Part shown: positions 16,111 to 50,415 of the stretch, piece by piece
Layout of the letters: each line of letters opens with the position of its first letter
Position numbering within the stretch: the first letter of the stretch is position 1
NCBI GenBank assembly: GCA_002309055.1
Contig: DBWO01000046.1
Location: forward strand, 41,865-105,864
Direction of reading: 5' to 3'
From: Ruminococcaceae bacterium UBA1236
GTDB lineage: Bacteria; Bacillota; Clostridia; Oscillospirales; Acutalibacteraceae
Length of the DNA: 64,000 nucleotides
Notes under the pieces: generated by a model
Database searches by the model: none
Told to the model about the DNA's origin: nothing
The model's input: the letters and a program-made list of their open reading frames with translations, nothing else
Program-made: the position numbers and the translations under genes

Positions 16111-16993
16111 AGATGTATATTATTCCTGCTCGGAAAAGCAGTGGCATATCATGATTGAAGAATACAATGAACCTCTCTTTAACGCCGCCATTCATTATAA
16201 CTTTGCCGGGCAAAAGGATATCGTTTACGAAAGCCCCGAAGGCGTGGCCCTCTATGATGACGGCAGCGCGAAGATGCCCGGCGGCAGAATTGTTGAGAAA
16301 GCCGTTGAAATAAAAGCCGACGGCGGCAACAACGTAAAATTTAATCTCACACAGCTCACTCCTCAGCAGGACGAAGGCTTCGGCGCAATCGATTACGGAT
16401 GTGTCTGCAAATTCGATCTCTCTCTCGCCGACCCGGATTCGGCTGAAATTTCCGAAGATAATCCCGCGGATATTTTCATAAAGAAAGAGTTTATCGGTTA
16501 CAGTATCGGCAGCATAGTCATTTTCCATTACCCGCAGAGCGGCGGCAGAGAGAGCTTCACGGCGACGAAGAATGACCCGAAGTTCAGAATATATGACGAC
16601 GGCGAATACTGGAAGATAACCGTAACATCCCTGAGCCCCTTCGGCATTTACAGCCTGCCCGCGCTGAGCATAAAGAGCAACCCCGGCACAAAGACCATTG
16701 ATTACGGCCAGGTGCTCCGCCTTGAGGCGCAGGCGCCCGACGGCTATGAAATCCGCTGGTTCATCGGCTCAAAGGATACCGGCAAAACGGGCGCGACTTT
16801 TGAATATGACAGCAAGAGCGGAAACGCCGATATCAGAGCCGTGCTTTATAAAGGCGGAAAACAGGTTACAACCGATGACGGCAATGAAATAAGCGCCTCC
16901 GAAACAGTAAAGGTGCGCTCCGGCTTCCTGCAGAGGCTCATCGCCTTCTTCAAATACACATTGTTCAGGATGAACAAAGTCGTTAATAACTGA
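13796..16993 (+). CDS. BspA-family LRR surface protein with a C-terminal Ig-like domain and amphipathic helix
   Basis: Paralog of 10635-13748 with the same repeats; ends VKVRSGFLQRLIAFFKYTLFRMNKVVNN. Confidence 0.93.
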   Translation: MKNFKSLKRGLCLLLSLVMTVSVFFGGAVTVNAETYSGTCGENLTWEFDDSAGTLTISGNGDMEDYDVVDSDSPWFTHRDAVTNITFNGNITSIGESAFYDCPGLTIVTIPDSVTSIGDYAFESCPGLTSVTIGNGVTNIGALAFSSCSGLTSINIPGSVTSIGVRAFERCPGLESITVDEGNPVYHSSGNCMIETESKTLIAGCKNSVIPDDGSVTSIDYDAFSGCTGLKNITIPDSVTSIGVGAFENCTGLTSVTIPDSITSIGSFAFYDCSGLTSITIHGSVTRIGDFAFSGCTGLTSISIPGSVTRIGDHAFERCPGLTSITIPDSVTRIGSSAFNGCTGLESITVDEGNAVYHSSGNCLIETESKTLIAGCKNSVIPDDGSVTKIGDYAFSGCTGLISVTIPDSVTSIGYSAFSGCTGFTNITLPDSVTSIGRSAFDGTGYYNNSANWENNVLYIGNHLIKAEYTLSGSYAIKEGTLYMADSAFWDCTELTGVTIPDSVTIISEEAFSGCSRIKYIVLPVSINEINSHAFDRCSSLSDIYYSGSEEQWNNITFGANNNRLIYANIHYNSDGNCGDHLSWSFDDFTGTLTISGYGEMYDYSDSLAPWDSYAYSGISNIVFDGEITSIGDYSFYDCKKLTNITIPDSVTRIGEGAFRLCSNLESITIPDSVISIGPDAFLFTEYYNDESNWEDGALYIGNYLIQINEDLSENYSVREGTISIASGAFSYYPGPNPGDELRFCDWLKSVTIPESVVSIGLRAFYECSSLTDVYYSCSEKQWHIMIEEYNEPLFNAAIHYNFAGQKDIVYESPEGVALYDDGSAKMPGGRIVEKAVEIKADGGNNVKFNLTQLTPQQDEGFGAIDYGCVCKFDLSLADPDSAEISEDNPADIFIKKEFIGYSIGSIVIFHYPQSGGRESFTATKNDPKFRIYDDGEYWKITVTSLSPFGIYSLPALSIKSNPGTKTIDYGQVLRLEAQAPDGYEIRWFIGSKDTGKTGATFEYDSKSGNADIRAVLYKGGKQVTTDDGNEISASETVKVRSGFLQRLIAFFKYTLFRMNKVVNN

Positions 16994-17030
16994 TCCTTTT
17001 ATTGGTTCAACATAATATCTTTCCCCGTGA

Positions 17031-17065
17031 ATCGGCCCCGGTTTTTCTACCGGGGCTGATTTTTT
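17031..17065 (+). terminator. Rho-independent terminator of the surface-protein operon
   Basis: atcggccccgg-loop-ccggggctgat followed by a T tract. Confidence 0.8.
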
Positions 17066-17066
17066 G

Positions 17067-17132
17067 CGTTCATACCGCATTTTGTCGCGTTCATACCGCC
17101 GCGCGGAAAAAGGGGTTTTTTGGGGTTATTAT
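17067..17132 (+). promoter_or_regulatory. LytTR-type direct-repeat box plus -10 element (copy 2)
   Basis: CGTTCATACCG at 17067-17077 and 17088-17098; TATTAT at 17127-17132, with the same 28-nt gap as copy 1. Confidence 0.8.
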
Positions 17133-17195
17133 GTGCTTGTAAGGAACACAAACACAAACCCGAAACTAAACGAACACAAAAAAGGAGAGATAAAA

Positions 17196-17345
17196 ATGTA
17201 TAAAATCAGCTTCACCGAATCAAAAATGACCGACAGCTACATAATGATGCTCCTCGGCGCAGGTTTCTTAAGATCCTCCAGCCCCGAGTTCAGCGGCCAA
17301 ATGTATTTTTACCGCAGCGGCAACGATGTTATCCTGCACATCTGA
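17196..17345 (+). CDS. Small protein (49 aa), putatively LytTR-regulated
   Basis: AAAGGAG RBS, ATG 17196, directly downstream of the repeat box and -10; MYKISFTESKMTDSYIMMLLGAGFLRSSSPEFSGQMYFYRSGNDVILHI. Confidence 0.65.
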   Translation: MYKISFTESKMTDSYIMMLLGAGFLRSSSPEFSGQMYFYRSGNDVILHI

Positions 17346-17457
17346 TATCCGATGACAATAGGGAAATAGCGAAAAAAGCACCGGGCGGGGAAAACTCGCG
17401 CCGGCACCGGAAGCAACCTGCGAAATGCAGAACCGGAGGACACACAACGGTATTTTG

Positions 17458-17486
17458 TTGACTTAAACGAATTATTAATATATAAT
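17458..17486 (+). promoter_or_regulatory. Sigma-A-like promoter
   Basis: TTGACT-17 nt-TATAAT upstream of the lipoprotein gene. Confidence 0.6.
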
Positions 17487-17605
17487 CATAATGCGGATAA
17501 ATAATATTGAAACATCGTATTCCGATTATGATTAGCGGCAGATTAACCGGATATCAACACGCTTTCAATTATTTAAACATATAAAAATATAAAAGGAGAG
17601 GTATT

Positions 17606-19135
17606 ATGAACAAAGGATTTATCAAAAAAACAACCGCAGCATTACTCATCATCGCAACACTTTTGACCCTTTGCTCCTGCTCATCGGGAACAGCGTCAAT
17701 CAAAAAGGGCGTTGACCTGGTCTTCACAGGCGCAAACGGCCACGCAAAAGCATCCGTCAACGCGGATTACGAAACGCTCGGCAAAAGCATCAACGCAAAA
17801 AAAGCCGCAAAGTATTATGCAAAGCTTACAAGCGCCTCCTTCGGCGGCGCTCTGACCGACGCGGTGCTCAGCGAAGAGAGTGACCCGGACCGCCTTTTCA
17901 GGACATTTTTCAGGCTGGTAATCGCCGACAACTCCAATGAGCTTAAAAACGGCGACAAGGTAACGGTCAATGTTGAAGTTTCCGAGTATATGGAAATGTT
18001 GGGCCAGACTTTCAAGGATGTTAAAAAAGGCACAGGATGCAATGTGCCCGAAACGCTTGAATTTAAGGTAAGCGGTCTTGAAGACGCCAAAGAAATTGAC
18101 GCTTTTGCAAATCTCAGCAAAATCGTTAAGTTTAAGGGTGCAAACGGCCATGCAAAAGCTTATATCGACATCGATGAGGATTACAGTGTTGCCGACGGCA
18201 CCGTAACGGTTTCATACGGCGGCTACGATAACTATCTTAAAGTCAGCGCAGGCGGCACCGATATCACATCCGTGAAGGTCACTGTTGAAGAAAACGAAAA
18301 CCTTAACAAGGGCGACAAAGTTGCTGTTTCCTTTGAAGATTCAGAATCACTCAATAACAGGCTGATGGATTACGGCTATGTTCTCAAAGCAGAAACCGCA
18401 AACGCGACCGTGCCCGATCTCGGCGAAGCAACCGAATTTGACATTCTCTCGAAGGTCAAGGATTATGTTGTTTTCCGCGGAGCCAACGGTGACGGAAAGG
18501 CCTTTATCTCGATACCCGATAAAACCGAATTCAAGCTCGGAGATATTTATTTCAAGAGACCCACATTCCGACAGGACAGCCTGGATATGATTTATGACAA
18601 CAAGGAGATAGGCGGCATCAGCTTTGAAATAGAAGAGGGCGGCACTCTGAAAGAGGGCGACAAGGTTGAACTGAAACTCAACACGGACTCCTACGCCCTT
18701 GATACCCTTGAGGAACACAATATTTACCCCAAAACAAATAAACTTGAGCTCACCGTGCCCGATCTCGGCAGCTACATAAACTCCGCCGATGAGCTTACAG
18801 CCGAAGACATCGCTTTCCTCAAAAAGCACGCGCTCGACGAAGCGGCAAAAGACCTGGATGTTCCCGTAACATTCTATGCCGTTTACTTCGGCAAAATCAA
18901 AGACAGCGCCGCGCACAAGTACAGCGGCAAGGGCGTAGTCAAGGTTATTTATTATTACGAACAGACCTTTATTATCTCAACAACAACTGTCGGCGAGAGC
19001 TACGATTATTACGACCTGTGCAAAGATTCAAAAGGCAACATATTGTTCGGCGAAACACAAACCACCGGTTGCTCATCAAGCGACACACTTGTTGAAGATT
19101 TTGACCGGAACTACACATACAGCAAATTAGGATAA
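17606..19135 (+). CDS. Lipoprotein with three internal repeats
   Basis: Lipobox-like LLTLCSC; three F.GANG..KA units, each with a L..GDKV motif. Confidence 0.75.
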   Translation: MNKGFIKKTTAALLIIATLLTLCSCSSGTASIKKGVDLVFTGANGHAKASVNADYETLGKSINAKKAAKYYAKLTSASFGGALTDAVLSEESDPDRLFRTFFRLVIADNSNELKNGDKVTVNVEVSEYMEMLGQTFKDVKKGTGCNVPETLEFKVSGLEDAKEIDAFANLSKIVKFKGANGHAKAYIDIDEDYSVADGTVTVSYGGYDNYLKVSAGGTDITSVKVTVEENENLNKGDKVAVSFEDSESLNNRLMDYGYVLKAETANATVPDLGEATEFDILSKVKDYVVFRGANGDGKAFISIPDKTEFKLGDIYFKRPTFRQDSLDMIYDNKEIGGISFEIEEGGTLKEGDKVELKLNTDSYALDTLEEHNIYPKTNKLELTVPDLGSYINSADELTAEDIAFLKKHALDEAAKDLDVPVTFYAVYFGKIKDSAAHKYSGKGVVKVIYYYEQTFIISTTTVGESYDYYDLCKDSKGNILFGETQTTGCSSSDTLVEDFDRNYTYSKLG

Positions 19136-19151
19136 CAAACCGGATATAATG

Positions 19152-19202
19152 AACCGGCCCTGCGTTGAAGGACACCCGACCTTCGCAGGGCCGGTTTTTT
19201 TG
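19152..19202 (+). terminator. Rho-independent terminator
   Basis: aaccggccctgcg...cgcagggccggtt followed by a T tract. Confidence 0.75.
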
Positions 19203-19270
19203 ATTGATTTTGCGTGTTGTGAAGTGTAAAATAAAAACATATAAGGAAAGAATGCGAAACGGAGAGAATT

Positions 19271-21217
19271 ATGAGAAACACCATTATTGAAAAAAACAGG
19301 ATAACATTCACAAGGGCAAACGAGCTCGTCAGAATAACTCCCTGCGGCAAAAACGCCCTGCGATTTGAGGCGTTTCCGGGCGGGAGAGCTTATGATGAAA
19401 ACTTTACTCTTATGCCCCGTGAAGCAAACGCGGAAATCGAGGAGCGCGGCTACTGCGTTTTTATGGAAAACGGCAGCGCAAAGCTGCAGCTTGAGGAAAG
19501 CGGCAAGGTCACCGCTTACAGCGGCGGCAGGGCGGTCCTTGAGGAAATGCCGGAGCTCGCCTTTAACAGCGGATACCGGCACTATGAGAGAAAAAACGGC
19601 TCTCTGTCCGCCCGCATCACCTTTAAAAGCAGAGAGGGCGAGCATTTTTACGGCCTGGGCCACGAAGCAAGCGGAAAATTTGACCTGAAGGGCTGCTCGT
19701 TTGACCTGAGGCACGTGAACGCAAAATGCACAATCCCGTTTGTTTATTCCTCGCTCGGTTACGGCTTTATCTGGAATAATCCCGCCGTGGGAACCGTGGA
19801 ACTCTCCGAAAACAGAACCCGCTGGAGCGCCGGCTCAACCGGCAAAATAGATTTTGTGTTTATCGCGGGAAATCCCATGGAGGTTAGCGAAACTCTTGCC
19901 GACATCACCGGGCACGCTCCGGTTATGCCTCACTGGGCAACCGGATTCTGGCAGAGCCGCCTGAGATATGAAACGCAGGAGGACTTGCTAGAGGTGGCAA
20001 GGCGCTACAAAGAAGAGAATATCCCTCTGTCGGTGATAATCTGCGATTACTTTCACTGGACGGAGCAGGGCGATTATAAATTTGACCCCCGTTACTGGCC
20101 CGATGTTAAGGCGATGACGGATGAGTTGCACGCAATGGGCACAAAGCTTGTTGTGTCAATGTGGCCCACAATCAACGAAAAATCCGAAAATTATTCTTTT
20201 ATGCGCGATAATAATATGCTGATTAAAACGCAGAGCGGTTCCGACAGAGTTTTTGATTTTTACGGCCCTCAGGCGGAAATTGACGTCACAAACCCCGCAA
20301 CGCGCAAATTCGTTTTTTCAAAGCTCAGGGAAAACTACCTTGACCGCGGCGTTGACGGGCTTTGGTTTGACGAAGCGGAGCCCGAAATACATCCCGAGGA
20401 TTTTCATAACCTGATTTTCCATATCGGCAAAGGCGATGAATACGGACTTATATATCCGTATTATTATTCCAAAATGGCATATGACGGCTTCGCGGAGATG
20501 GGCGAAACCCCCGTTGTGCTCACAAGAGCGGCTTACCTCGGCTCGCAGCAATTCGGTGCGCTTGTGTGGAGCGGCGACATCCCCTCAACCTTTGAGAGCC
20601 TTGCCGCGCAGGTGAAAGCAGGGCTTAATATGTCTGTGTGCGGAATCCCGTGGTGGAATACCGATATCGGCGGCTTCTGGGGCGGCGACACTGAAAGCGA
20701 TGAGTTCAGGGAGCTCATAGTGCGCTGGTTCCAATACGGAGTTTTTTCACCCGTTATGCGTTTGCACGGCAACAGAAACCGCCACGGCGAGAAGAAGCGC
20801 GATGTGAAGGAACCGTCCGGCGATCCGAATGAAATCTGGAGTTTCGGCGAGCGCAATTTTGCTGTTCTGAAAGACCTGGTGCTGCTTCGTGAGCGCCTGA
20901 GGCCGTATATTGAAAAGCATATGGAAATTGCCGCCGAAAAGGGATACCCCGTTATGCGTCCGATGTTTTTTGATTACCCGGGCGATGAAATCTGCTACAC
21001 CCTGGGTGAGCAGTATATGTTCGGCAGCGATATCCTTTTTGCTCCGGTAGTGAACAGAGGGCAGACCCTGAAGGATGTTTATCTGTCCGCAGGCGAATGG
21101 GTTCACACCGGAACAAAGGAAACCTACGCGCCGGGATGGCATACGGTAAAAGCGGAAATTGACAGCTTTGTCGCCTTTGTCAGAAAAGGAGCAAAAGTGC
21201 TTGACTGCTTCGCCTGA
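19271..21217 (+). CDS. Glycoside hydrolase family 31 (alpha-xylosidase/glucosidase-like)
   Basis: WFDEAEPE nucleophile motif, VWSGDI, WNTDIGGF, RLHG, PVMRPMF. Confidence 0.93.
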   Translation: MRNTIIEKNRITFTRANELVRITPCGKNALRFEAFPGGRAYDENFTLMPREANAEIEERGYCVFMENGSAKLQLEESGKVTAYSGGRAVLEEMPELAFNSGYRHYERKNGSLSARITFKSREGEHFYGLGHEASGKFDLKGCSFDLRHVNAKCTIPFVYSSLGYGFIWNNPAVGTVELSENRTRWSAGSTGKIDFVFIAGNPMEVSETLADITGHAPVMPHWATGFWQSRLRYETQEDLLEVARRYKEENIPLSVIICDYFHWTEQGDYKFDPRYWPDVKAMTDELHAMGTKLVVSMWPTINEKSENYSFMRDNNMLIKTQSGSDRVFDFYGPQAEIDVTNPATRKFVFSKLRENYLDRGVDGLWFDEAEPEIHPEDFHNLIFHIGKGDEYGLIYPYYYSKMAYDGFAEMGETPVVLTRAAYLGSQQFGALVWSGDIPSTFESLAAQVKAGLNMSVCGIPWWNTDIGGFWGGDTESDEFRELIVRWFQYGVFSPVMRLHGNRNRHGEKKRDVKEPSGDPNEIWSFGERNFAVLKDLVLLRERLRPYIEKHMEIAAEKGYPVMRPMFFDYPGDEICYTLGEQYMFGSDILFAPVVNRGQTLKDVYLSAGEWVHTGTKETYAPGWHTVKAEIDSFVAFVRKGAKVLDCFA

Positions 21218-21238
21218 CTCCGCGCATTAAAAACACAC

Positions 21239-21269
21239 AAAAGCACCTGCCCGCAGGCAGGTGCTTTTT
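21239..21269. terminator. Bidirectional terminator between convergent genes
   Basis: aaaagcacctgcc-cgca-ggcaggtgctttt. Confidence 0.85.
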
Positions 21270-21283
21270 GATGTACAGTGCTG

Positions 21284-21970
21284 TTATCTTGATTTGCCGA
21301 ACATTTTTTTGCGGGGATTTCTTGCCTTGTAGTCGGCGTCGATGTCGGCGGACCAGTTATCTGCGACGGCGCAGCCGGCTCTGAAGTTGCCCATGGTTCT
21401 GCTCACGCTCTCAAACACAACTCCGGTACCCTTGCTGTCGGCGTTGTAGTTTACGGCTCTTTCGGGAGCAATGCCGTAATGCTTCGCGGTTTCAACGGCG
21501 TCGATGTTCGCGCCGACGAAGAGGAATTCCCAGCCGTATTTCTCCTTTTCCTTCTCAACCATCTTTTTGACCTTGTCACTCGAGTAAATACGGCTCGCGT
21601 TTTCATAGCCGTCCGTTGTGATGACAAACATGGTGTGCTCGGGCACATCTTCGGGGCGGGCGTACTTATGGATGTTGGCGATGTGGTGGATTGCGCAGCC
21701 GATTGCGTCAATCAGCGCGGTGCATCCGCCTACCTGATAATCGTCATCTGTCATCTCTTTGACCTCGGAGAGGTCGACTCTGTCGTGAATCACTTCGCTC
21801 ACGGAATTGAAGAGCACGGTTGAAACGAAGCACTTGCCGTCCTGCTTCTTCTGCTTTGCTATAAGGGAATTGAAGCCGCCTATGGTGTCGCTCTCGAGCC
21901 CGGCCATTGAGCCGCTGCGGTCAAGAATGAATACAAGCTCGGTGATTCCGTTTTTTACAGTTTCTTTCAT
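21284..21970 (-). CDS. von Willebrand factor A (VWA) domain protein, cytoplasmic
   Basis: MIDAS ILDRSGSM, GCTALIDA, ITTDGYENAS, FLFVGAN; AGGAGG RBS before ATG 21970. Confidence 0.9.
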   Translation of the reverse strand: MKETVKNGITELVFILDRSGSMAGLESDTIGGFNSLIAKQKKQDGKCFVSTVLFNSVSEVIHDRVDLSEVKEMTDDDYQVGGCTALIDAIGCAIHHIANIHKYARPEDVPEHTMFVITTDGYENASRIYSSDKVKKMVEKEKEKYGWEFLFVGANIDAVETAKHYGIAPERAVNYNADSKGTGVVFESVSRTMGNFRAGCAVADNWSADIDADYKARNPRKKMFGKSR

Positions 21971-22027
21971 TGTAATAACCTCCTGAAATTTAAATGTGGC
22001 TGTTCGGTTTCTCAACCTTACAGCCAC

Positions 22028-22071
22028 ATTATATACGGATTTTTTGCCCGGGAGGTCGCCTGCGAAGCGAC
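22028..22071 (-). promoter_or_regulatory. Promoter of the VWA gene with an upstream inverted repeat
   Basis: Minus-strand TATAAT (22028-22033) and GTCGC-N7-GCGAC (22055-22071). Confidence 0.5.
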
Positions 22072-22078
22072 AAATTTT

Positions 22079-23395
22079 TCAGCTCTTTACTCCGCCGAGG
22101 AGAGGCTGATCAAATTCAAACAGCGCTTCGTTTATGGTGAATATATTATAAATACCTTTGTTTATGAAATATTCCACTATTATATCGGCCTTGTTGCTGT
22201 GCGAGAGAGCAAATCCGGCTTTTCTGAGCATTTCGTTTGTTTCCTCGGGCGGAAGCTCAAGCGCTATCGCGAAAGCAAGCACGGTGCTTTTGCTGGGCTT
22301 ATAATTGACATCTCCCCGTATTCTCGAAAACAGGCGGCGGTCGATATTAGCTTTCTTGTAGCACTGCGCGTCGGTCATATTCTTCTCATCGATTTTTCTC
22401 AGAAGCATCTGTGAAAAGCTCTCGTCAATCTCTTTGAGAATGTCCGTGAGGGCTTCTTCGCTGTCGGATTCATAAACCGCTTCGTTGAAAGTGTTGCACG
22501 GCATCTGAAATGAAGCGGGATGTGATGAAGCGCAGGGTGAAGGTGCTTCTTCAGACGCATCAAGGAGGGAAAGGTCAAATGCAGACCCGGCTTTTTCGCT
22601 CTTCTTTTTGCTTCTCTTTTCGCGCTTTTTTTCGCTCTTTTCCGGCTCGGGAGCCGCATTTTTTTCAAAATCAAATAAAACCGGCGGCCCGGATGTTCTG
22701 CTCCCGCAGTTTCCGCAATATAAATCTTCCTCTTCTATTACCGCGCCGCAGTTGCGGCAATGCTTTGCCGGAATTCTTTGGCTCTGATATGCGCCCGAAG
22801 CCGGAATGTAATTGAAAAAGGCCGGGTTGGAAGGTGTCTCGTTCATTTGCGGGCGTTCTGCGGGCCCGGGGATTATGTTTCCGCTGATATAATCGGCGAT
22901 GTCATCCCTCAGGGTTTTGCTTATGCTGTAGCCCTCTTCATCGTGCACAACAAGGTAAACGAGCATATCGCTGCCTGCGAGGAAACGCTCAATTTCTTTG
23001 ACCGCGATGTCAATTCCCTTGTCCTTCGGGAAACCGAAAGTGCCCGTGGCGATGAGCGGAAAAGCGATGCTCTGACAGCCGTTTTCCGCCGCAAGAACGA
23101 GCGAGTTTCTGTAACAGCTTTCAAGCGCGCCGTAGGAAACATAGCCGCTTTCATCCTTTTTCGGCCCTACCGTGTGAATAACATATCTGCACGGCAGATT
23201 GAATGCAGGTGTGATTTTCGCCTGCCCTTCCTCAATGGTGCCCAGCAAACGGCATTCCTCCGTAAGGGCGGGACCCGCGGCGGCGTGAATGGCATAATCG
23301 GCGCCGCCCGAGCCGCTCATAAAGGAGTCGGTCGGGTTTACGATAGCGTCACACACCATCCTCGTTATGTCGTTTCTGATAATTTCAAGCGGCAT
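22079..23395 (-). CDS. Macrodomain (O-acetyl-ADP-ribose deacetylase-like) + zinc ribbon + C-terminal XRE-like HTH protein
   Basis: DIT...DAIVNP...GSGGAD.AIH..AG, YVIHTVGP, SIAFPLIATGTFGFP; CRNC...CGNC; CYKKANIDRRLFSRI...KPSK. Confidence 0.88.
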   Translation of the reverse strand: MPLEIIRNDITRMVCDAIVNPTDSFMSGSGGADYAIHAAAGPALTEECRLLGTIEEGQAKITPAFNLPCRYVIHTVGPKKDESGYVSYGALESCYRNSLVLAAENGCQSIAFPLIATGTFGFPKDKGIDIAVKEIERFLAGSDMLVYLVVHDEEGYSISKTLRDDIADYISGNIIPGPAERPQMNETPSNPAFFNYIPASGAYQSQRIPAKHCRNCGAVIEEEDLYCGNCGSRTSGPPVLFDFEKNAAPEPEKSEKKREKRSKKKSEKAGSAFDLSLLDASEEAPSPCASSHPASFQMPCNTFNEAVYESDSEEALTDILKEIDESFSQMLLRKIDEKNMTDAQCYKKANIDRRLFSRIRGDVNYKPSKSTVLAFAIALELPPEETNEMLRKAGFALSHSNKADIIVEYFINKGIYNIFTINEALFEFDQPLLGGVKS

Positions 23396-23399
23396 TCCA

Positions 23400-24773: not shown

Positions 24774-25012
24774 TTCTTTTTTCTCTTTTCCCTTAAGATT
24801 ATACGGCTATTTTACGCCTTTAATCGCGATTTGTAAATGCTCATTTGCACTAAATATAGAAGAAATTTGCGATATTTCCTCTGCAAAAAGGCACATATTG
24901 ATTTATAAAATTTTTCTCAAAAATAATTTGCTTTTACATAAATATATGATATAATATCTTTCAGACTTAATTTCGAGAAAGGAGTGACTGCCGGTTTACC
25001 CGGCGCTTAATT

Positions 25013-26659
25013 ATGAGAAAACGTTTCCTTGCCGCTGTGCTGAGCCTGATTATAGCTTCTCTCGCGATTGTGACCCCGGCTTACGCGTCCGAAATCACGG
25101 GTTTCAAAGCGGACGGCAACAAAATTACTGCTGAAATAGCCGTTGACAGCGGCACAAAAATAGATAAGAGCAAGGTTACCGCCACACTTGACGGCAAAAC
25201 ACTTGCTACCGACAGCGTTGAAGTCGCGGGCGGGTCCACGGAATACATCGTGATGATAGACACTTCCCTCTCACTTTCAACCGCTCACTTCGAGGCACAG
25301 AAAAAGGCTGTCACCTCGCTCTACAATTCACTGGGCGAAAAAGACAACCTCATTCTCTACACATTCGATAAAAACAACAGCAAAATCCTTGACGGCACCG
25401 AAAAGAAAGAGGATGCCCTCAAAAAGATTTCCGCTCTCAAGGCCGCAGGTCAGGACACCGCTTTTTATGAGGCGATGGTAAAACTCACCGAAGAGGCGAA
25501 AGCGAGCAAAGCCGACAATGTGGTGCCTATCGTATTCTCCGACGGCGTTGAAACGCTTGACAAGGGCGCGAAGGCAAAGGCGGAGAAAGCCCTTTCCGAA
25601 TGCCCCGTTTCCGTTTACGGCATGTACCCGAGCGTTGAATCCGAAAAGGATTCCGCGGCTCTCAATGATTTGCTCAAGAAATCGGGAGGCAGCGCCACAG
25701 CGTTCAAGCCCGATAACGTTGAAAACAAGCTTGAAACCTACGCGGACAAGAAGGCCGCCGACAAAGCGACCGTCGTTTTCACCGCGGACGGCGAAATAGC
25801 CGCCAACGACTCGGCAAAGCTCAGCATTGACCTCGGCGACGGCAAGCCCGTCACGGCAGAGGGCAAAGTGAGCGAATGGAAAGCGGATCCTTCCGAAACA
25901 AAAGAATCCGCCGAAGAGAGCTCCGGTAAGGATGAAACTTCCGAAACCGCCGAAACAGGCGAAGCAACAACAAAGCAGAGCGGCGAGGCGGAAGGCCTTG
26001 ACATTACAAAGATTCTCATCCCTGTTGCCGCCGCGCTTGTGCTGCTGCTTATAGTTCTTCTGATATTCAGAAAGAAGGGCGGCAAGAAGCCCAAGGGTGA
26101 TGAGCCCGATGCTCCCGAATCGCCCGAAACTCCCGAGGTCCCCGAAGAAACAAAACCGGAAGAGCCGGAGCCCGAAGAGGAAACTCCCGCACAGGCAGAG
26201 CCCGAAGCTTCCGCCGAGCCGGAGAATGAGGAGCCGGAGAGCGAAGCCGGTGAAACCGCGGAAAGCGAAGAGACAAATGAAGCCGAAGGCGAACAGGCAG
26301 AGAATGCCGGCGCCGAAGCGGAGCTTTCCGAAGAGGAGCAGAGAGCCAAAGATGAAGAGGCCGCCGAAGCGGAAAGAGCCGCTAAGCAGAGAGCCGAAGA
26401 AAGAGCCAAGAGAAGAGCGGCAAACCTCGAAAAGGCAAAGATAGCCGCCGAGGCGAGAGCCGCGATGCTCGCTCAGATGGGCAGTGAAAACAAAGAGGCC
26501 GCCGAGGCGAAAGCCGAGCAGAGCGCACGCGACGCGAAGAAGGCCGAAAAAGAAGCTGCCGCCGCCGCAAAAGAGCGCGCCAAGAAAGAAAAGGCGAACA
26601 GGAAAAAGATGAAGGAAGAGGGAGCAAACTTCCAGTTTTACTTCGTCGATAAAAAGTAA
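25013..26659 (+). CDS. Type I membrane protein: extracellular VWA domain, TM helix, acidic and Ala/Lys/Glu-rich cytoplasmic tail
   Basis: Signal peptide; MIDTSLS, DTAFYEA, VFSDG; TM ILIPVAAALVLLLIVLLIF followed by RKK. Confidence 0.8.
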   Translation: MRKRFLAAVLSLIIASLAIVTPAYASEITGFKADGNKITAEIAVDSGTKIDKSKVTATLDGKTLATDSVEVAGGSTEYIVMIDTSLSLSTAHFEAQKKAVTSLYNSLGEKDNLILYTFDKNNSKILDGTEKKEDALKKISALKAAGQDTAFYEAMVKLTEEAKASKADNVVPIVFSDGVETLDKGAKAKAEKALSECPVSVYGMYPSVESEKDSAALNDLLKKSGGSATAFKPDNVENKLETYADKKAADKATVVFTADGEIAANDSAKLSIDLGDGKPVTAEGKVSEWKADPSETKESAEESSGKDETSETAETGEATTKQSGEAEGLDITKILIPVAAALVLLLIVLLIFRKKGGKKPKGDEPDAPESPETPEVPEETKPEEPEPEEETPAQAEPEASAEPENEEPESEAGETAESEETNEAEGEQAENAGAEAELSEEEQRAKDEEAAEAERAAKQRAEERAKRRAANLEKAKIAAEARAAMLAQMGSENKEAAEAKAEQSARDAKKAEKEAAAAAKERAKKEKANRKKMKEEGANFQFYFVDKK

Positions 26660-26674
26660 TTATTTCCGGCTTTT

Positions 26675-26749
26675 GCATTTAAGCGAAAAACAAAAAGACA
26701 AAGTATATGTTAAAGGCTCGCAGGATTTGTTTCCTGTGAGCCTCTTTTT
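26675..26749 (+). repeat. Repeated 3' element plus terminator hairpin, copy 1
   Basis: GCATTTAAGCGAAAA...gttaaag then ggctcgcagga/tcctgtgagcc stem and T tract. Confidence 0.7.
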
Positions 26750-26888
26750 CTTGTAAGATTAAAAGGTTAGTGCTTACAAATAAGGAATAATTATATGTCT
26801 TTTTCACCGCCTTTACTCGCTCGCCGTATCTGCATACTGTCTTCGCTCGTAAAAACGGCGTTTTCATCTTAACTGCAAAAGCCCCTGC

Positions 26889-26962
26889 GCATTTAAGCGA
26901 AAAGCAAACAGATAATTAAAGTTAAAGGGCTTGTATGCGGTCTTACATACGAGCCCTTTTTT
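26889..26962 (+). repeat. Repeated 3' element plus terminator hairpin, copy 2
   Basis: GCATTTAAGCGAAAA...gttaaag then gggcttgtatg/catacgagccc stem and T tract. Confidence 0.7.
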
Positions 26963-27086
26963 AATTGTTTTTGAACTGTTTTTCAACATATTGTGTTATT
27001 CTTGACAGCGGGCAACAATATATAATATAATGTAAAATAGATTATTATACACTTGTTATATACTCTTATTCAGCAAAGGAAATCAT

Positions 27087-30000
27087 ATGGTTAAATTCAG
27101 ACGGCTCACAGCATTAATACTTTCGATTCTGCTTGTTCTTACCGCTTCTCCCTTATCTTACGCAACAGGCAGATCTGCGGAATTTGCAAACAGCGACTGC
27201 GAAGGTTACTTCGGCGGCCTGTTTTACTTTGCCTCAAATGAGGATATATCTTTCGCCTACAGAGAGACCGCAATCAACGAAGACAGAGAAGCTATTACGG
27301 AATATTACGTTGATTCAATTGCCGTTTACGGCGGATACGCTTATGTGCTGACGGGCAAAACGCTCAGAAAAATCAATGTGAATACGCTTGAGGACAGCCC
27401 TGTTTATTCCTCGCGCGCGGGCATTGACCGCTTCGCTCTCGGCGCAGGCAAAATCTATCTTCTCACCGGCGGCAGCATCACTTCGCTGAATACCGGCGGC
27501 ACGCTCACAACCGTTGTCGCCTCAGGCAAAATCATCGATTTCTGGCTTGAGAACGCCGGCACGCTCTCCTATATGACAAATGAGGATTATATCCATACCC
27601 TCGACCTTGCCTCGGGCGATGAAAACATAGTGCCGAATTACGCCACCGACCTCGGCGAAAACATACCGCTTTACAATCCTTCGGACGGCACAAATCAGCC
27701 CTCAATGGACCTGGGTTCTCTGCAGTCGAAATTCCCTGCGGGCAAGTACTGGAATCATGTCGGCTCATCAAGCAACAACCCCAACGGATACACATCATCC
27801 CCCTGCACTCATCACTCGGGCAACTGCGACTATTACGGCGGATGCGGCTGTAATTCCTTCAGTTCGGCCATTCAGTGCATGGGCTATGCTTTCAAGTGCG
27901 CCTATGATGTTTACGGCTCATATACCTCGAGCTGGAGCAGTTCATACTCAACCTCGGCGCTTGACAGCGTCAAGGCGGGCGACGTTATAAGATACAGAAA
28001 CGACGGTCACTCTATTTTTGTTACGGGCGTCAGCGGCAGCACCATAACCTATACGGACTGTAACAGCGACGGCCACTGTATAATCAAGTGGAACAGGACC
28101 ATTGACAAGTCAACTGTTAGGTCGTCATTCACTTACCTTCGCTCCGCTCCCTACGCGGCGCCCGGAAACACCTCTACAGACACGAAATATACCGTAACGT
28201 ACAATGCTAACGGCGGCAGCTGCTCGGTTAAAACCGCCACAATAAAGAGCGGCGACCCATACGGTGACCTTCCTGCGGCAGAGCGCGAGGGCTATGATTT
28301 ACTGGGGTGGTACACCTCGGCAAGCGGCGGCACTCCCGTTTCGTCAACCGATAAGGTAACCTCAAACACCACTCTCTACGCTCAGTGGAAGATTAAAACA
28401 TATTACATAACATTCGATAAAAACGGCGGCAACTACGCGCCCGATGATTTTTCAAAGGTTTACGGCGAGAGCAAAACAATCGGCACAAGGACACCGTCAA
28501 GAGACGGCTTCACCTTCGTGACATGGAATACGGCAAAGGACGGCTCGGGCACATCATACAAGCCCGGCTCGGTCTACAGCGCGAATGAGGATGCCACTCT
28601 CTACGCTATATGGAAGGGCAAATCCATTCAGATTAACCTTAACGCTAACGGCGGCACATTCAGCGGCTCAAACTATATGTCCGTTGTTTACGGCGAGCCC
28701 TACGGTGAGCTCCCGGCGCCGGAGAGAACAGGCTATGATTTCACCGGCTGGCACATAAGCTCCGAAACAGGCACTCCCGTCACATCCGAAACTATTGTTG
28801 AGGTTGCGACCTCTCACAGACTTGTTGCCTCGTGGAAGGTAAAAGTCTATACTGTCACCTATAACGCGAACGGCGGTAAAAACACGCCCGACAGTCAGAG
28901 CAAAGAATACGGCAGGAGCATAACCTTACGCTCCGATATTCCCTCAAGAGAACACTATTCTTTCACCGGATGGTACACCGCGCCCGACTCAAGCGGCACA
29001 AAGTATGAGCCCGGCACATCTTATTCAGCAAATGCCGACCTCTATCTTTTCGCCGGATGGAAGGGTGAGGAATACACCGTTAATTTCAACGTGAACGGCG
29101 GCGAGGGCACAATCGCTTCTCAGACAAAAGTTCACGGCACTACCCTGACCCTGACCTCCGTTACTCCCGAAAAAACGGGACACACATTTGTTGAATGGAA
29201 CACCAAATCCGACGGAAGCGGCAAGGGCTTCGCTTCGGGCGGAAACTACAATAACGAGGGCAACACTACCCTCTACGCGATATGGGAAATCACGAAATAT
29301 AAAGTGACATATGACGCGAACGGCGGCGAAAACGCACCCGCGGCTTCCGTGTTTGAATATGACTCATCAACCGTCATAAGCAGCACCGTTCCCACACGCA
29401 CCGGATTCAATTTCCTCGGCTGGTTCACAAACGCTGACGGCACCGGCACGCAGTACACGGCAGGCACAACCTACGCGAAGAACGAAAATCTCAAGCTTTA
29501 CGCCGCCTGGGAGAGGGAAAAATATCCCGTAACCTTTAACGCGAACGGCGGAAAAGGTGCTCCCGAAACGCAGTACAAGGAATACGAAGTCGCTCTCGCA
29601 ATTTCCGACACCGTTCCGGCAAAAGCCGGCTATGATTTCACCGGATGGAACACTCTCGCGAACGGTACGGGCAAGACATATCAGCCCGGCGAAACATACA
29701 CCGAAAACAAGGCTCTTTCCCTCTGCGCGCAGTGGGCCGCGGCAACCTACACCGTTACATTCAATTCAAACGGTTCTGCCGCCGCAGACACAACCGCAAG
29801 ATTCAAATACGGCACAGTTTATTCGTCTCTGCCCGTTATATCGAGGCGCGGATACACCTTCCTCGGCTGGTACACATCGCCTAAATCCGGCACAAAGATA
29901 AATGAGGGCGGCACTGTCAGTATCACCGCCGATTCGGTATTCTATGCCCACTGGAGCGCAAATACATACACGCTCACATTTAATCCCGCGGGCGGCGAAT

Positions 30001-31985
30001 GCGCGACGGAAAAAGTTGATGTTACATACGGCACGGCATACAGCAACCTGCCTGCCGCCTCAAAAACAGGTTTTGTTTTCGCCGGCTGGTTTGACAGCGA
30101 CGGCAACGAAATCGCCCCCGGTGCGACCGTGCTTATCACAAAAGACACTTCCGTCACGGCGAAATGGGTAAACGGCGCATACACGGTAACCCTTGACCCC
30201 GTGGGAGGCGAATGCGAAACCGTTTCTCTTTCGGCGAATTACGGCGACACGGTCAGCGGACTGCCTGTGCCCGAGAGAGCCGGATTCAATTTCGGCGGAT
30301 GGGCGGATGAAAGCGGAGCGTTAACCGGCAAAAGCTTCACGATGCCCGCGAAAAACACAGCTCTCACCGCCATATGGACTCCCGAAACTTATGCCGTAAT
30401 TCTTGACCCCGGTCAGGGCTCACTCTCCGGAAGAAGCGTTAACGTAAACTACCTTGAGCCTGTCGGCACACTTCCCAAGCCCGTGCTCGGCGGCAGTGAA
30501 TTTCTCGGCTGGTTTGCCCCGGACGGAAAAGAAATAACGGCTTCAACAGTTTATTCTTATAACAAAGCAATCACTCTCACGGCAAAATACGCCGATGTAA
30601 CCGCAGGCAGCGTAACATTCACGGCAGACGGAAACACCGTGGCAGTTGTCGCGAATTCAAAACTGCCCTCGGGTGCTCCCGCGGTGCCTTCGAAGGAGGG
30701 TTATTCCGGCAAATGGAGCGAATATGAAAAAACCGCGCAGGGCGATGTGGCAAAAGCCGTTTATACCCCCGCGGAATACACCGTGAGCTTCATAACCGGG
30801 GACAGCACCGTCACAAAACAATACGCGGCAGGCGATTATGTCACCGGCGACGGAGTCACAGCACCCGAAGGATATGTTATTAACGGCTTTGACCGTGAAA
30901 TGCCCTTTGAAATGCCCGCGGAAAACATCACCGTCACCGCGGTGCTCACTCCGCTTGAATATACAGCGATTTACATAAACGAGGGCAAAGTCTGGTCAAC
31001 GGTTAAATACACCGCTCAGTCTCTCCCCGCGGCGCGTCTCCCGTCAAAGGACGGCTATTCCGTAACGTGGGATAAAACCGGCCCCGTGCCCGGCGGTATG
31101 ACGGTATTTGCCGTTTACACGCCCGTTAACTATACAGCGACATTCAGGGCTCTCGGCAAAACCGTTGCCGAAATGAGCTTCAACATTGAAACAGAGGCAC
31201 TCAAGGAGCCCGCCGTGCCGGTTAATAACGGCTACAGCGGCAGATGGGAATCCTACACCCTCGGCGCGGAAAACATTACAGTCAATGCCGTTTACGCGCC
31301 AAACACCTACACCGTGACCTTTGTCGCAATGGACAAGGAAATTGCGAAAGTCAGCTACGCCTACGGCGCGGAAAGCATAAATGAACCTGCGGTGCCCGCG
31401 CGCGCCGGATACACCGGCTCATGGGCGAAATACACCCTCGGCTACAAGGATTCCACCGTAAACGCTCTTTACAGAGCGATTCAGTACACAGCAACCTTTG
31501 TCGCGAACGGAAAAGTGATAGCAACCGTACCCTTTACCGTGGAGAGTCCTCCCGTTGCCCCCGCCGTGCCGCAGAGGTCCGGCTATACGGCAAAGTGGAG
31601 CGACTATACGATTATGCCGTGTGATATGACAATCACGGCGAAATACATCCCGATGTCCGGAATTTACATCCTGAGTTATATGAACGAAAGAGAAATCGAT
31701 TATATGACCACGATAACTTTCAGGGCGAAAGTTTCAAACACTCCGGAAGAATATGAAATTCACTGGTTAATCAACGGCGAGGATACCGGTACGGGTAACG
31801 GCGACGGCACAGTCACAATCAAGGAGGCGCGCTCGGATTTCACCGTATGCGCTCAGATGTTTTATGACGGAGAAGGCTACGCGAAGAGTGAAACCGAAAA
31901 GGTGAATGTGAAAAACGGTTTCTTCGCCCGCCTCAACGGTTTCTTCAGAAAGCTGTTCCACAGGCTACATAATATAACGCAGTAA
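27087..31985 (+). CDS. Large surface protein: propeller-like N-domain, CHAP/NlpC-like Cys-His domain, many InlB B-repeat (Listeria-Bacteroides) domains, shared C-terminal domain
   Basis: Signal peptide; QCMGYA...KAGDVIRY..GHSIFV; repeated VTY.ANGG...P.R.GY.F.GW...LYA.W; ends VKNGFFARLNGFFRKLFHRLHNITQ. Confidence 0.88.
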   Translation: MVKFRRLTALILSILLVLTASPLSYATGRSAEFANSDCEGYFGGLFYFASNEDISFAYRETAINEDREAITEYYVDSIAVYGGYAYVLTGKTLRKINVNTLEDSPVYSSRAGIDRFALGAGKIYLLTGGSITSLNTGGTLTTVVASGKIIDFWLENAGTLSYMTNEDYIHTLDLASGDENIVPNYATDLGENIPLYNPSDGTNQPSMDLGSLQSKFPAGKYWNHVGSSSNNPNGYTSSPCTHHSGNCDYYGGCGCNSFSSAIQCMGYAFKCAYDVYGSYTSSWSSSYSTSALDSVKAGDVIRYRNDGHSIFVTGVSGSTITYTDCNSDGHCIIKWNRTIDKSTVRSSFTYLRSAPYAAPGNTSTDTKYTVTYNANGGSCSVKTATIKSGDPYGDLPAAEREGYDLLGWYTSASGGTPVSSTDKVTSNTTLYAQWKIKTYYITFDKNGGNYAPDDFSKVYGESKTIGTRTPSRDGFTFVTWNTAKDGSGTSYKPGSVYSANEDATLYAIWKGKSIQINLNANGGTFSGSNYMSVVYGEPYGELPAPERTGYDFTGWHISSETGTPVTSETIVEVATSHRLVASWKVKVYTVTYNANGGKNTPDSQSKEYGRSITLRSDIPSREHYSFTGWYTAPDSSGTKYEPGTSYSANADLYLFAGWKGEEYTVNFNVNGGEGTIASQTKVHGTTLTLTSVTPEKTGHTFVEWNTKSDGSGKGFASGGNYNNEGNTTLYAIWEITKYKVTYDANGGENAPAASVFEYDSSTVISSTVPTRTGFNFLGWFTNADGTGTQYTAGTTYAKNENLKLYAAWEREKYPVTFNANGGKGAPETQYKEYEVALAISDTVPAKAGYDFTGWNTLANGTGKTYQPGETYTENKALSLCAQWAAATYTVTFNSNGSAAADTTARFKYGTVYSSLPVISRRGYTFLGWYTSPKSGTKINEGGTVSITADSVFYAHWSANTYTLTFNPAGGECATEKVDVTYGTAYSNLPAASKTGFVFAGWFDSDGNEIAPGATVLITKDTSVTAKWVNGAYTVTLDPVGGECETVSLSANYGDTVSGLPVPERAGFNFGGWADESGALTGKSFTMPAKNTALTAIWTPETYAVILDPGQGSLSGRSVNVNYLEPVGTLPKPVLGGSEFLGWFAPDGKEITASTVYSYNKAITLTAKYADVTAGSVTFTADGNTVAVVANSKLPSGAPAVPSKEGYSGKWSEYEKTAQGDVAKAVYTPAEYTVSFITGDSTVTKQYAAGDYVTGDGVTAPEGYVINGFDREMPFEMPAENITVTAVLTPLEYTAIYINEGKVWSTVKYTAQSLPAARLPSKDGYSVTWDKTGPVPGGMTVFAVYTPVNYTATFRALGKTVAEMSFNIETEALKEPAVPVNNGYSGRWESYTLGAENITVNAVYAPNTYTVTFVAMDKEIAKVSYAYGAESINEPAVPARAGYTGSWAKYTLGYKDSTVNALYRAIQYTATFVANGKVIATVPFTVESPPVAPAVPQRSGYTAKWSDYTIMPCDMTITAKYIPMSGIYILSYMNEREIDYMTTITFRAKVSNTPEEYEIHWLINGEDTGTGNGDGTVTIKEARSDFTVCAQMFYDGEGYAKSETEKVNVKNGFFARLNGFFRKLFHRLHNITQ

Positions 31986-50202: not shown

Positions 50203-50415
50203 GTCCCTTTCCTCCGGTCAAGGCAGATTACACTGCATAATATTTCATGATATTCTATCATTTTAACAGGCAAAAAACAATAGTTTTGAAACGAAAAGCC
50301 GTATAATTAACAATAAATTAATTGATTTAACATAAATTATATGCTACTATTATTATGCATAATTGCACACATTATTAATCTTTTTCGGCAAAATATCAGG
50401 AAGGAGGCAGGGCTT

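What the first reader, a model, noticed from the sequence alone, without database searches (positions are those of the whole stretch)
16661..31985. Shared C-terminal domain plus Phe-rich amphipathic helix on unrelated secreted proteins: candidate new sorting/anchoring system
Seen: the last ~110 aa of the BspA protein (16661-16993) and of the unrelated CHAP/InlB-repeat protein (31656-31985) align motif by motif: TIDYGQ/EIDYMT, PDGYEIRWFIGSKDTG/PEEYEIHWLINGEDTG, SETVKVRSGFLQRLIAFFKYTLFRM/TEKVNVKNGFFARLNGFFRKLFHRL. Neither protein shows LPxTG, SLH, dockerin, choline-binding repeats or a C-terminal TM helix. Known: portable C-terminal tags on diverse passengers mark sorting systems (sortase, exosortase PEP-CTERM, T9SS CTD). 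Inference: this Ig-like domain plus amphipathic helix is a lineage-specific surface-anchoring or export tag. No processing enzyme or receptor is identifiable in the window.
Basis: partly seen in the sequence, partly recalled or inferred. Interest (0 to 1): 0.82.

Follow-up and report, generated by a model that had tools for sequence, protein, structure and literature searches.

The report
Portable Ig-plus-helix surface anchor
Two unrelated proteins with predicted export signals in this likely rumen Clostridia bacterium, and 15 other proteins in its genome, end in the same uncatalogued ~110-residue module, predicted to be an immunoglobulin-like domain carrying a phenylalanine-rich two-faced helix, which likely pins them to the outer face of the cell membrane without needing a sorting enzyme.

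Summary
The two tails align (E 4e-12). The module ends 17 proteins of this genome, is found in 76 of 85 other genomes of the genus, is rare outside it, and has no Pfam or NCBIfam model of its own. It is predicted as one unit: an Ig-like stalk domain, a 13-residue Phe-rich amphipathic helix flanked by two conserved Lys/Arg, and a terminal strand (pLDDT 97). The helix, not the Ig domain, looks like the working part: it also ends exported proteins lacking the Ig, the Ig repeats without it, and E. coli PBP5's membrane anchor fits its profile. In relatives the module fills the anchor slot of cohesin proteins. Best reading: a self-inserting, PBP5-type in-plane membrane anchor made portable. No sorting enzyme or receptor was found, though none is excluded. 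Membrane binding is inferred, not shown. This scan has noted the same kind of tail before on other DNA. New variant of a known kind.

The parts
13796..16993 (+). Protein A: 1065-aa BspA-type leucine-rich-repeat surface protein with predicted signal peptide, ending in the module
   Evidence: ORF; Pfam LRR_5 E 6e-144; signal peptide by my hydrophobicity heuristic
13796..13894 (+). Predicted cleavable Sec signal peptide of protein A (about residues 1-33; cleavage site judged by eye)
   Evidence: sequence; heuristic; SignalP not available
16658..16921 (+). Ig-like beta-sandwich part of the module in protein A (residues 955-1042)
   Evidence: Ig-only profile E 8e-22; AlphaFold2 seven strands, pLDDT about 90; Ig-fold matches
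16925..16963 (+). Phe-rich amphipathic helix of protein A (residues 1044-1056; mean hydrophobicity 0.89, moment 0.56, charge +2)
16964..16993 (+). Short turn and terminal beta-strand of the module in protein A, then stop
   Evidence: strand 108-110 in the 17-sequence model, low confidence; strand 114-117 at pLDDT about 97 in the model of a paralogue's module
27087..31985 (+). Protein B: 1632-aa surface protein with predicted signal peptide, CHAP-like domain, long InlB B-repeat stalk, ending in the module
   Evidence: ORF; Pfam Flg_new E 9e-150, 12 stretches
27867..28064 (+). CHAP-like cysteine amidase core of protein B (residues 261-326), below the Pfam cut-off
   Evidence: PF05257 E 9e-4; invariant Gln-Cys, Gly-Asp, His, Asn
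31656..31916 (+). Ig-like beta-sandwich part of the module in protein B (residues 1524-1610)
   Evidence: Ig-only profile E 9e-25; alignment A1
31920..31958 (+). Phe-rich amphipathic helix of protein B (residues 1612-1624; mean hydrophobicity 0.70, moment 0.74, charge +3)
31959..31985 (+). Turn and terminal strand of the module in protein B, then stop
   Evidence: alignment A1; by homology to the model

Best explanation
The module is likely a self-inserting membrane anchor: after likely Sec export and signal-peptide removal, its predicted 13-residue amphipathic helix would lie flat in the outer leaflet of the cytoplasmic membrane and hold the passenger on the cell. Shown by sequence and profiles: C-terminal position, portability, four near-invariant Phe on one 160-degree face, Lys/Arg at the two borders of that face, no transmembrane segment. 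Predicted: Ig fold, helix and terminal strand fold as one unit, with the small-residue back of the helix against the domain and the Phe face pointing away. Inferred: the Ig domain is the last segment of the stalk and fixes the angle to the membrane; the long LRR, InlB B-repeat and Ig stalks carry enzymes, adhesins or cohesins through the wall; no dedicated enzyme is needed; the module spreads by domain shuffling.
For: Position: 18 of 18 own-genome hits within 20 aa of the stop; 58 of 58 in fetched relatives' loci within 25 aa; 39 of 40 more within 15 aa, the last running off the fetched region; 118 of 119 helix-bearing cluster representatives. Export: 37 of 42 complete relatives have a signal peptide by heuristic. 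Helix: F97, F104, F105, F109 at 90% or more; K/R 94-95% at positions 100 and 106, which sit 120 degrees either side of the hydrophobic centre; Ala/Ser/Gly 93% at 103 on the back. Helix is general, Ig is not: a strict amphipathic-helix test is met by the C-terminus of 22 of 135 signal-peptide proteins without a TM segment (15 of the 22 lack the Ig), 0 of 51 lipoproteins, 4 of 771 cytoplasmic-class ORFs (3 are broken module genes) and 2 of 2,260 internal windows. Identical Ig repeats occur in tandem with the helix only on the last (P0136, P0142). In module-negative genomes of the genus, 3 of the signal-peptide BspA proteins fetched still end in a Phe/Ile-rich helix, judged by eye. E. coli PBP5's anchor scores 17.7 bits on the helix profile, above all but 2 of 1,014 other genome ORFs, and those 2 are exported helix-only proteins; that helix attaches PBP5 to the membrane (PMC2909392, passages). 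Slot: of 120 homologues of protein B's CHAP-like region, 34 end in the module, 25 carry dockerin, 2 SLH, 1 choline-binding repeats, with 0 of those 28 carrying the module. In 6 of 17 cohesin loci fetched, a cohesin protein ends in the module and lies directly downstream of a gene ending in a dockerin (for five; L201 from frames); in the four-gene operon a sister cohesin protein ends in a TM helix with basic tail.
Against: No experiment shows membrane binding. I could not see model coordinates, so exposure of the Phe face rests on covariation of low power (Neff 185): only G107-P113 (z 6.1) exceeds the column-shuffled maximum (4.5-5.1); A103-P113 (4.5) and Y16-K100 (4.4) do not, and Y16-F109 (3.9) points to one Phe touching the domain. 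Phe is conserved more strictly than lipid insertion alone would need, which could mean a protein partner. PBP6's anchor scores only 0.7 bits on the same profile. Neither window protein passes my strict helix test (both pass the looser one). 3 of 119 module proteins also have internal dockerins, one homologue with a dockerin ends in a different amphipathic helix, and 58 of the 120 CHAP-region homologues show neither the module nor dockerin, SLH or choline-binding repeats, so the slot argument is not strict. Relatives are kin, not independent, and the fetched loci were mostly top-scoring hits. Whether one short helix can hold a 1,000-4,500-residue protein is untested.
Confidence: 0.65

Rival explanations
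1. The module is a sorting tag read by a dedicated, still unknown enzyme or membrane receptor of this lineage, which cleaves it or transfers the passenger to a wall or lipid anchor.
For: Near-strict C-terminal position; narrow lineage (76 of 85 in the genus, 8 of 150 across the family, 1 full-length match in 399 other genomes of the class); tight Phe and Lys/Arg conservation; about half the members have Leu-Pro after the helix.
Against: No invariant column in 72 sequences; Leu-Pro is absent from both window proteins; no TM helix or basic tail; no recurring neighbour among genes flanking the 18 own copies; one internal copy exists (P0247); the slot accepts unrelated helices; the genome's 4 sortases have their own small TM-tailed candidates; no exosortase found in an 82%-complete genome.
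Confidence: 0.13
2. The helix is a protein-docking element: it binds a groove on an abundant envelope protein, or other copies of itself, building a surface layer or bundles in the manner of dockerin-cohesin.
For: The helix is held rigidly on a folded domain; Phe conservation is high; small signal peptide-Ig-helix proteins exist that could be coat proteins (167 aa in this genome, 184 aa in G144).
Against: Lys/Arg at both borders and a broad hydrophobic face are the pattern of lipid-binding helices (established knowledge); helix-only tails vary widely in length and sequence; no candidate partner was found.
Confidence: 0.1
3. The module binds a wall glycopolymer or lipoglycan: the Ig domain and the basic residues grip an anionic polymer, as SLH or GW domains do, and the helix contacts its lipid part.
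For: No SLH domain found in the genome, so large wall-spanning proteins need another hold; helix charge averages +1.7; a conserved Tyr16 and Lys68 lie in the Ig part.
Against: Single copy per protein, whereas wall-binding domains are usually repeated (recalled); the Ig is dispensable and generic; conservation centres on hydrophobic helix residues.
Confidence: 0.07
4. The helix and last strand are only a structural cap that finishes the terminal Ig domain; the proteins are released or held by other domains.
For: The whole unit is predicted at uniform high confidence; a weak Y16-F109 coupling; the neighbouring BspA paralogue at 10635-13748 lacks the module altogether.
Against: Identical Ig repeats exist without the helix; such helices are enriched at C-termini of exported proteins that have no Ig, and absent from 51 lipoproteins.
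Confidence: 0.05

Closest known systems
C-terminal amphipathic membrane anchor of low-molecular-weight penicillin-binding proteins (E. coli PBP5/DacA, PBP6/DacC)
   Same: Cleaved signal peptide, a beta-sheet domain, then a short C-terminal amphipathic helix and no TM segment (PMC2909392 passages). PBP5's helix has like hydrophobicity, moment and charge (0.92, 0.65, +1 against 0.70-0.89, 0.56-0.74, +2/+3) and scores 17.7 bits on the module's helix profile.
   Different: Here the anchor is portable over at least 44 architectures among 78 proteins in a monoderm, on proteins up to 4,506 aa; the helix is followed by a strand predicted to fold back; there is no Peptidase_S11 domain, the profile matches PBP5 only over the helix (E 0.015), PBP6 scores 0.7 bits, and this genome's own DacA ends in a TM helix.
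Sortase substrates (LPxTG) and exosortase/rhombosortase C-terminal tags (PEP-CTERM, GlyGly-CTERM; features recalled)
   Same: Portable C-terminal signal on diverse exported passengers.
   Different: No TM helix or basic tail (0 of 119 reach a 19-residue hydropathy of 1.9; 10 reach 1.6), no conserved motif before the helix, no enzyme identified.
SLH- and non-SLH anchoring scaffoldins of cohesin-dockerin systems (PMC11557425 passages)
   Same: In relatives: signal peptide, one or three cohesins, stalk, then the module, next to a dockerin gene.
   Different: The anchor is none of those named in the passages read (SLH, LPxTG, LysM, C-terminal TM). This genome has no detected cohesin, and the passengers shown are LRR, InlB B-repeat, SH3 and Ig proteins, not cellulases.
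Ig-like stalk domains (I-set-like; T4-like Hoc 3shs, C. thermocellum CbhA X1 modules 3pdd/3pe9, Pfam Ig_3/I-set/Ig_7)
   Same: Seven-strand beta-sandwich: Z 8.9, rmsd 2.0 over 79 residues to 3shs; Z 9.2, rmsd 2.2 over 87 residues to 6lyc; a few members score on Ig_3, I-set or BiPBP_C.
   Different: Matches cover residues 1-95 or so, at 10-22% identity; the helix and terminal strand were barely tested by these searches.
Type IX secretion C-terminal domain (features recalled)
   Same: Ig-like domain at the extreme C-terminus of exported proteins.
   Different: No Pfam or NCBIfam T9SS tail match; no Omp85 found in the genome; the lineage is Clostridia by relatives' titles.

Membership tests
PBP5-type C-terminal amphipathic anchor (mechanism) | N-terminal Sec signal peptide | tested here: met
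   Heuristic, not SignalP: both window proteins; 13 of 17 own-genome members, the other 4 being fragments at contig ends or N runs; 37 of 42 complete relatives; 78 of 119 representatives, many of the rest looking truncated
PBP5-type C-terminal amphipathic anchor (mechanism) | Short amphipathic helix at the C-terminus, no TM segment | tested here: met
PBP5-type C-terminal amphipathic anchor (mechanism) | Helix needed and sufficient for membrane attachment | not testable with these tools
   needs fractionation or liposome binding
Low-molecular-weight PBP family (Peptidase_S11) | DD-carboxypeptidase domain and homology of the beta domain | tested here: not met
   No such domain in the window proteins; module profile matches PBP5 only over the helix, E 0.015
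Sortase substrate | LPxTG-like motif followed by TM helix and basic tail | tested here: not met
   Leu-Pro comes after the helix in about half the members and nothing hydrophobic follows
Sortase substrate | Sortase in the genome | tested here: met
   4 matches over the cut-off; presence alone links them to nothing
Exosortase / rhombosortase tags | Short motif, TM helix, basic tail | tested here: not met
Exosortase / rhombosortase tags | Dedicated intramembrane enzyme | tested here: inconclusive
   PF09721 not found in an 82%-complete genome; rhomboids not searched
T9SS C-terminal domain | Match to the T9SS tail models | tested here: not met
   0 of 17 members in Pfam and NCBIfam at E up to 1
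T9SS C-terminal domain | Outer membrane and T9SS machinery | tested here: inconclusive
   Omp85 not found, genome 82% complete; T9SS genes not searched one by one
SLH, dockerin or choline-binding anchors | Match of the module to PF00395, PF00404 or PF01473 | tested here: not met
Anchoring scaffoldin (relatives only) | Cohesin domain(s) with a cell-attachment element at the end | tested here: inconclusive
   Cohesins over the Pfam cut-off with the module at the end; attachment itself and dockerin binding untested; no cohesin in this genome
Ig-like fold | Seven-strand beta-sandwich superposing on Ig domains | tested here: met

The most novel reading that the evidence does not exclude
The module is the signal of an undescribed surface-display system of these Clostridia: the clamped Phe-rich helix is read by a dedicated receptor, insertase or transferase, or by a lineage-specific envelope lipid or polymer, and this system rather than sortase or SLH mounts most of their giant adhesins and their cohesin scaffolds.
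Probability: 0.17. Interest if true: 0.8.

Novelty: new variant of a known kind. Interest (0 to 1): 0.5.

Why it matters
If right, an in-plane amphipathic helix, known as the anchor of a few small PBPs, is a main way in which a large genus of uncultured Clostridia keeps big adhesins, hydrolases and cohesin scaffolds on the cell: up to 43 module copies per genome. A 2018 review of surface display in monoderm bacteria does not contain the words amphipathic, monotopic or in-plane in its main text (PMC5817068, word search). Such proteins would be annotated as freely secreted, and cohesin proteins ending in the module would be missed as anchoring scaffoldins. A profile of the module would be a useful new family model, and a 110-residue enzyme-independent anchor is easy to test and could serve in surface display.

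Tried and rejected
Family libraries: no Pfam or NCBIfam model for either window tail; over 17 members only scattered weak hits, best Ig_7 (2 members, E 0.004) and epsilon phenol-soluble modulin (4 members, E 0.018, taken as amphipathic likeness only). PDB by sequence: only weak Ig hits, best E 6e-4. Fold searches list no match that clearly covers the helix and terminal strand; they barely test that part. Complex prediction of two copies of the module gave no answer (score 0.01); it is not evidence either way. The ESM Atlas could not be searched, so no language-model look-alike search was made. Gene neighbourhood: no recurring partner among genes within two of the 18 copies; whole-genome phylogenetic profiling was not done. 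Outer membrane, SLH, exosortase, cohesin: none found in this 82%-complete genome; three transpeptidase-domain PBPs are present, so a wall-less cell is unlikely. A random 220 kb from three module-negative genomes held 14 signal-peptide ORFs with a stop, 0 of which met the strict helix test, too few to compare with 22 of 135. Link to loss of sporulation: the module occurs in both spo0A-positive and spo0A-negative genomes, so it does not explain presence. Literature: eight full-text searches, including four literal helix motifs, listed no paper on this module; I saw listings and abstract starts only, except passages of PMC2909392, PMC5817068 and PMC11557425; supplements were not read and subscription papers are not in the library. 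The word-index protein search with the 17-tail alignment found only 15 proteins because candidates were capped; the HMMER search replaced it, but its counts (4,441 at E 0.001; 2,220 at 1e-10) include Ig-repeat proteins with no helix (31 of the best 150), so they overstate family size.


Full report
Observation. The two ORFs are as described: protein A, 13796-16993, 1065 aa, and protein B, 27087-31985, 1632 aa. Their last 120 residues align at 27% identity, E 4e-12, and every quoted motif is in place. A is a BspA LRR protein and B an InlB B-repeat protein with a CHAP-like domain that is under the Pfam cut-off (E 9e-4) but keeps the expected conserved residues. Neither tail matches Pfam or NCBIfam.

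The family in this genome. The genome is 1.72 Mb in 55 contigs and 82% complete. A profile from the two tails, iterated over 6,602 ORFs, converged on 18 hits, all within 20 aa of the stop. Seventeen have the Ig part and the helix; one has the helix only. Thirteen of the 17 begin with a signal peptide by eye; four are fragments at contig ends or after N runs, two of them behind an ORF that has one. Passengers include LRR_5, Flg_new, DUF6273, CUB, lipase_3 and SH3_3.

Distribution. With a 72-sequence alignment 76 of 85 other genomes of the genus match, 3 of them by one weak hit, with up to 43 matches per genome. With the 17-sequence alignment 8 of 150 genomes across the family match, 4 at E below 1e-7, and 0 of 16 from other families of the order. 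In the class, 31 of 399 other genomes match but only one strongly over the full length (E 2e-16); most others cover the Ig part only, and only 11 candidates per genome were scored. Relatives with titles are mostly rumen MAGs, one named Acutalibacteraceae; the taxon is inferred from these. Among 1.84 billion cluster representatives 2,220 score E below 1e-10, a count inflated by Ig-repeat proteins: of the best 150, 119 carry the helix, 118 of them at the C-terminus, and 31 are Ig-only. In loci I fetched, mostly top hits, 58 of 58 and then 39 of 40 were C-terminal. Seventy-eight signal-peptide members fall into 44 architectures; 37 sampled from different architectures add cohesin, CHAP, papain, CAP, ricin lectin and lipase domains.

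Structure. AlphaFold2 on protein A's tail with 17 sequences gave seven strands, a helix and a doubtful last strand (pLDDT 85). With 72 sequences, on a paralogue's tail, the whole unit is confident: pLDDT 97, pTM 0.87, helix 97-108, strand 114-117. Fold searches return generic Ig domains over the first 95 residues (Z 8.9 to phage Hoc, rmsd 2.0, 79 aligned; Z 9.2 to SIRPa, rmsd 2.2, 87 aligned). The Ig part is a stalk repeat: related domains form long arrays in unrelated surface proteins, and in P0136 identical repeats stand in tandem with the helix only on the last. So the helix is not needed to complete the Ig fold.

The helix. The consensus is GFFxKxIAFFKxLFG. On a helical wheel the eight hydrophobic positions span 160 degrees; positions 100 and 106 are Lys/Arg in 94-95% and lie at the two borders; position 103 at the back is Ala/Ser/Gly in 93% (260 sequences). 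This is the pattern of lipid-surface helices (established knowledge). Covariation suggests the back of the helix packs on the returning tail (G107-P113 z 6.1, above the shuffled maximum of 4.5-5.1; A103-P113 4.5 and Y16-K100 4.4, below it), while Y16-F109 (3.9) points the other way; the test is weak. It is not a transmembrane segment: 0 of 119 reach 1.9 and 10 reach 1.6 in 19-residue hydropathy.

The helix is the general element. A strict test (moment at least 0.60, hydrophobicity at least 0.70, two Phe/Trp) is met at the C-terminus of 22 of 135 signal-peptide proteins with no TM segment, 15 of them without the Ig, against 4 of 771 cytoplasmic-class ORFs (3 are broken module genes), 0 of 51 lipoproteins and 2 of 2,260 internal windows. 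The two window proteins themselves miss this strict test and pass the looser one. In genomes of the genus without the module, three large BspA proteins still end in Phe/Ile-rich helices by eye, while four smaller signal-peptide ones and one more with a hydrophobic tail differ.

The slot it fills. Of 120 homologues of protein B's CHAP-like region, 34 end in the module; 25 have dockerin, 2 SLH and 1 choline-binding repeats, and none of these 28 has the module; 58 have none of these. Cohesins occur in 15 of 85 genus genomes. In 17 cohesin loci fetched, 6 have a cohesin protein ending in the module directly downstream of a gene ending in a dockerin (domains confirmed for a subset; L201 read from frames). 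In a conserved four-gene operon seen in 9 of these loci, one cohesin protein ends in a TM helix with a basic tail, and the last, multi-cohesin protein ends in the module (2 loci), in other amphipathic helices (6) or in neither (1). This is the layout of anchoring scaffoldins (PMC11557425, passages). Against strict exclusivity, 3 of 119 module proteins have internal dockerins.

Search for machinery. The genome has 4 sortases with a handful of small TM-tailed candidates, three PBPs, one dockerin, and no detected SLH, Omp85, exosortase or cohesin. Genes flanking the 18 copies share no recurring family. No column of the module is invariant, and one copy is internal. A dedicated enzyme or receptor is therefore unsupported, but a whole-genome profile was not run.

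Comparison with what is known. E. coli PBP5 has a cleaved signal peptide, a beta-sheet module and an 18-residue C-terminal amphipathic helix that attaches it to the outer face of the inner membrane (PMC2909392, passages). Its helix, read from the K-12 record, scores 17.7 bits on the module's helix profile, above all but 2 of 1,014 other genome ORFs; PBP6 scores 0.7. The module works like this anchor on the best reading, but is not a PBP, a sortase or exosortase substrate, a T9SS tail, SLH or dockerin. Eight paper searches listed nothing on it, and a review of monoderm surface display lacks the words amphipathic, monotopic and in-plane (PMC5817068, word search of the main text).

Earlier notes. 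Look-ups by sequence and place found nothing. By words, several unchecked AI notes on other genomes describe the same kind of tail, one an Ig-plus-helix module. They are not evidence. My anchor reading predates them; from them I took the slot argument and the PBP5 pattern as leads and tested both here. I could not confirm that their module is this family.

Verdict. A real, uncatalogued, portable C-terminal module; most likely (0.65) an enzyme-independent in-plane membrane anchor on an Ig stalk. New variant of a known kind; interest 0.5. The dedicated-system reading remains possible at about 0.17.

Noticed in passing
window 10635-13748 (+): A 1037-aa BspA paralogue just upstream of protein A shares its next-to-last domain but stops right after it and has no module; a natural pair with and without the anchor.
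   Followed up: partly
L192-L198, L207, L208 (for example L192:1730-15227): Conserved four-gene cohesin-dockerin operon in the genus: two small cohesin proteins (amphipathic hairpin tail; TM tail), a large dockerin protein, and a large multi-cohesin LRR/InlB-repeat protein. No cellulase domain in the members scanned; some copies sit beside resolvase- or mobilisation-like ORFs by eye.
   Followed up: partly
genus-wide: The 17 genomes with no spo0A match (this one included) carry more module copies than the 69 with one (median 17 against 6). Kin are not independent and genomes are incomplete, so this may be one clade.
   Followed up: partly
G000 C18:11514, C42:59937, C1:33234, C29:29495 and window 50341-51885: Several exported-looking proteins start with an unusual Phe/Ile-rich segment lacking an obvious cleavage site, and C28:29447-31282 has an amphipathic helix right after its signal peptide; the same kind of anchor may be used at the N-terminus.
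   Followed up: no
G000 C25:105440, C53:520, C26:18046, C14:3225: Four signal-peptide proteins seem to share a second, different C-terminal domain ending in a helix and a Pro/Asp-rich tail (by eye).
   Followed up: no
P0105, P0132, P0134, P0046, P0050, L096, L206: Other tail types on like passengers: a Cys/His-clasped helix, a Trp/Ile-rich hydrophobic tail after an Ig domain, and the same Phe helix on a more distant Ig.
   Followed up: no
L007:4820-5320 (G000 C1) and L076: Small proteins of 167-184 aa made only of signal peptide, the Ig domain and a doubled amphipathic helix; function unexplained.
   Followed up: no
window 16610-16642: The domain before the module in protein A ends in a strand that recalls the autoproteolytic motif of ZU5/GAIN-type domains but lacks the His (recalled, no database match).
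   Followed up: no
window 25013-26659 (+): vWA-domain protein with signal peptide, a central TM helix and a long acidic/Ala-rich cytoplasmic tail directly upstream of protein B.
   Followed up: no
P0247: One 1320-aa protein has the full module internally (912-1028), followed by further domains; possibly a fusion of adjacent genes.
   Followed up: no
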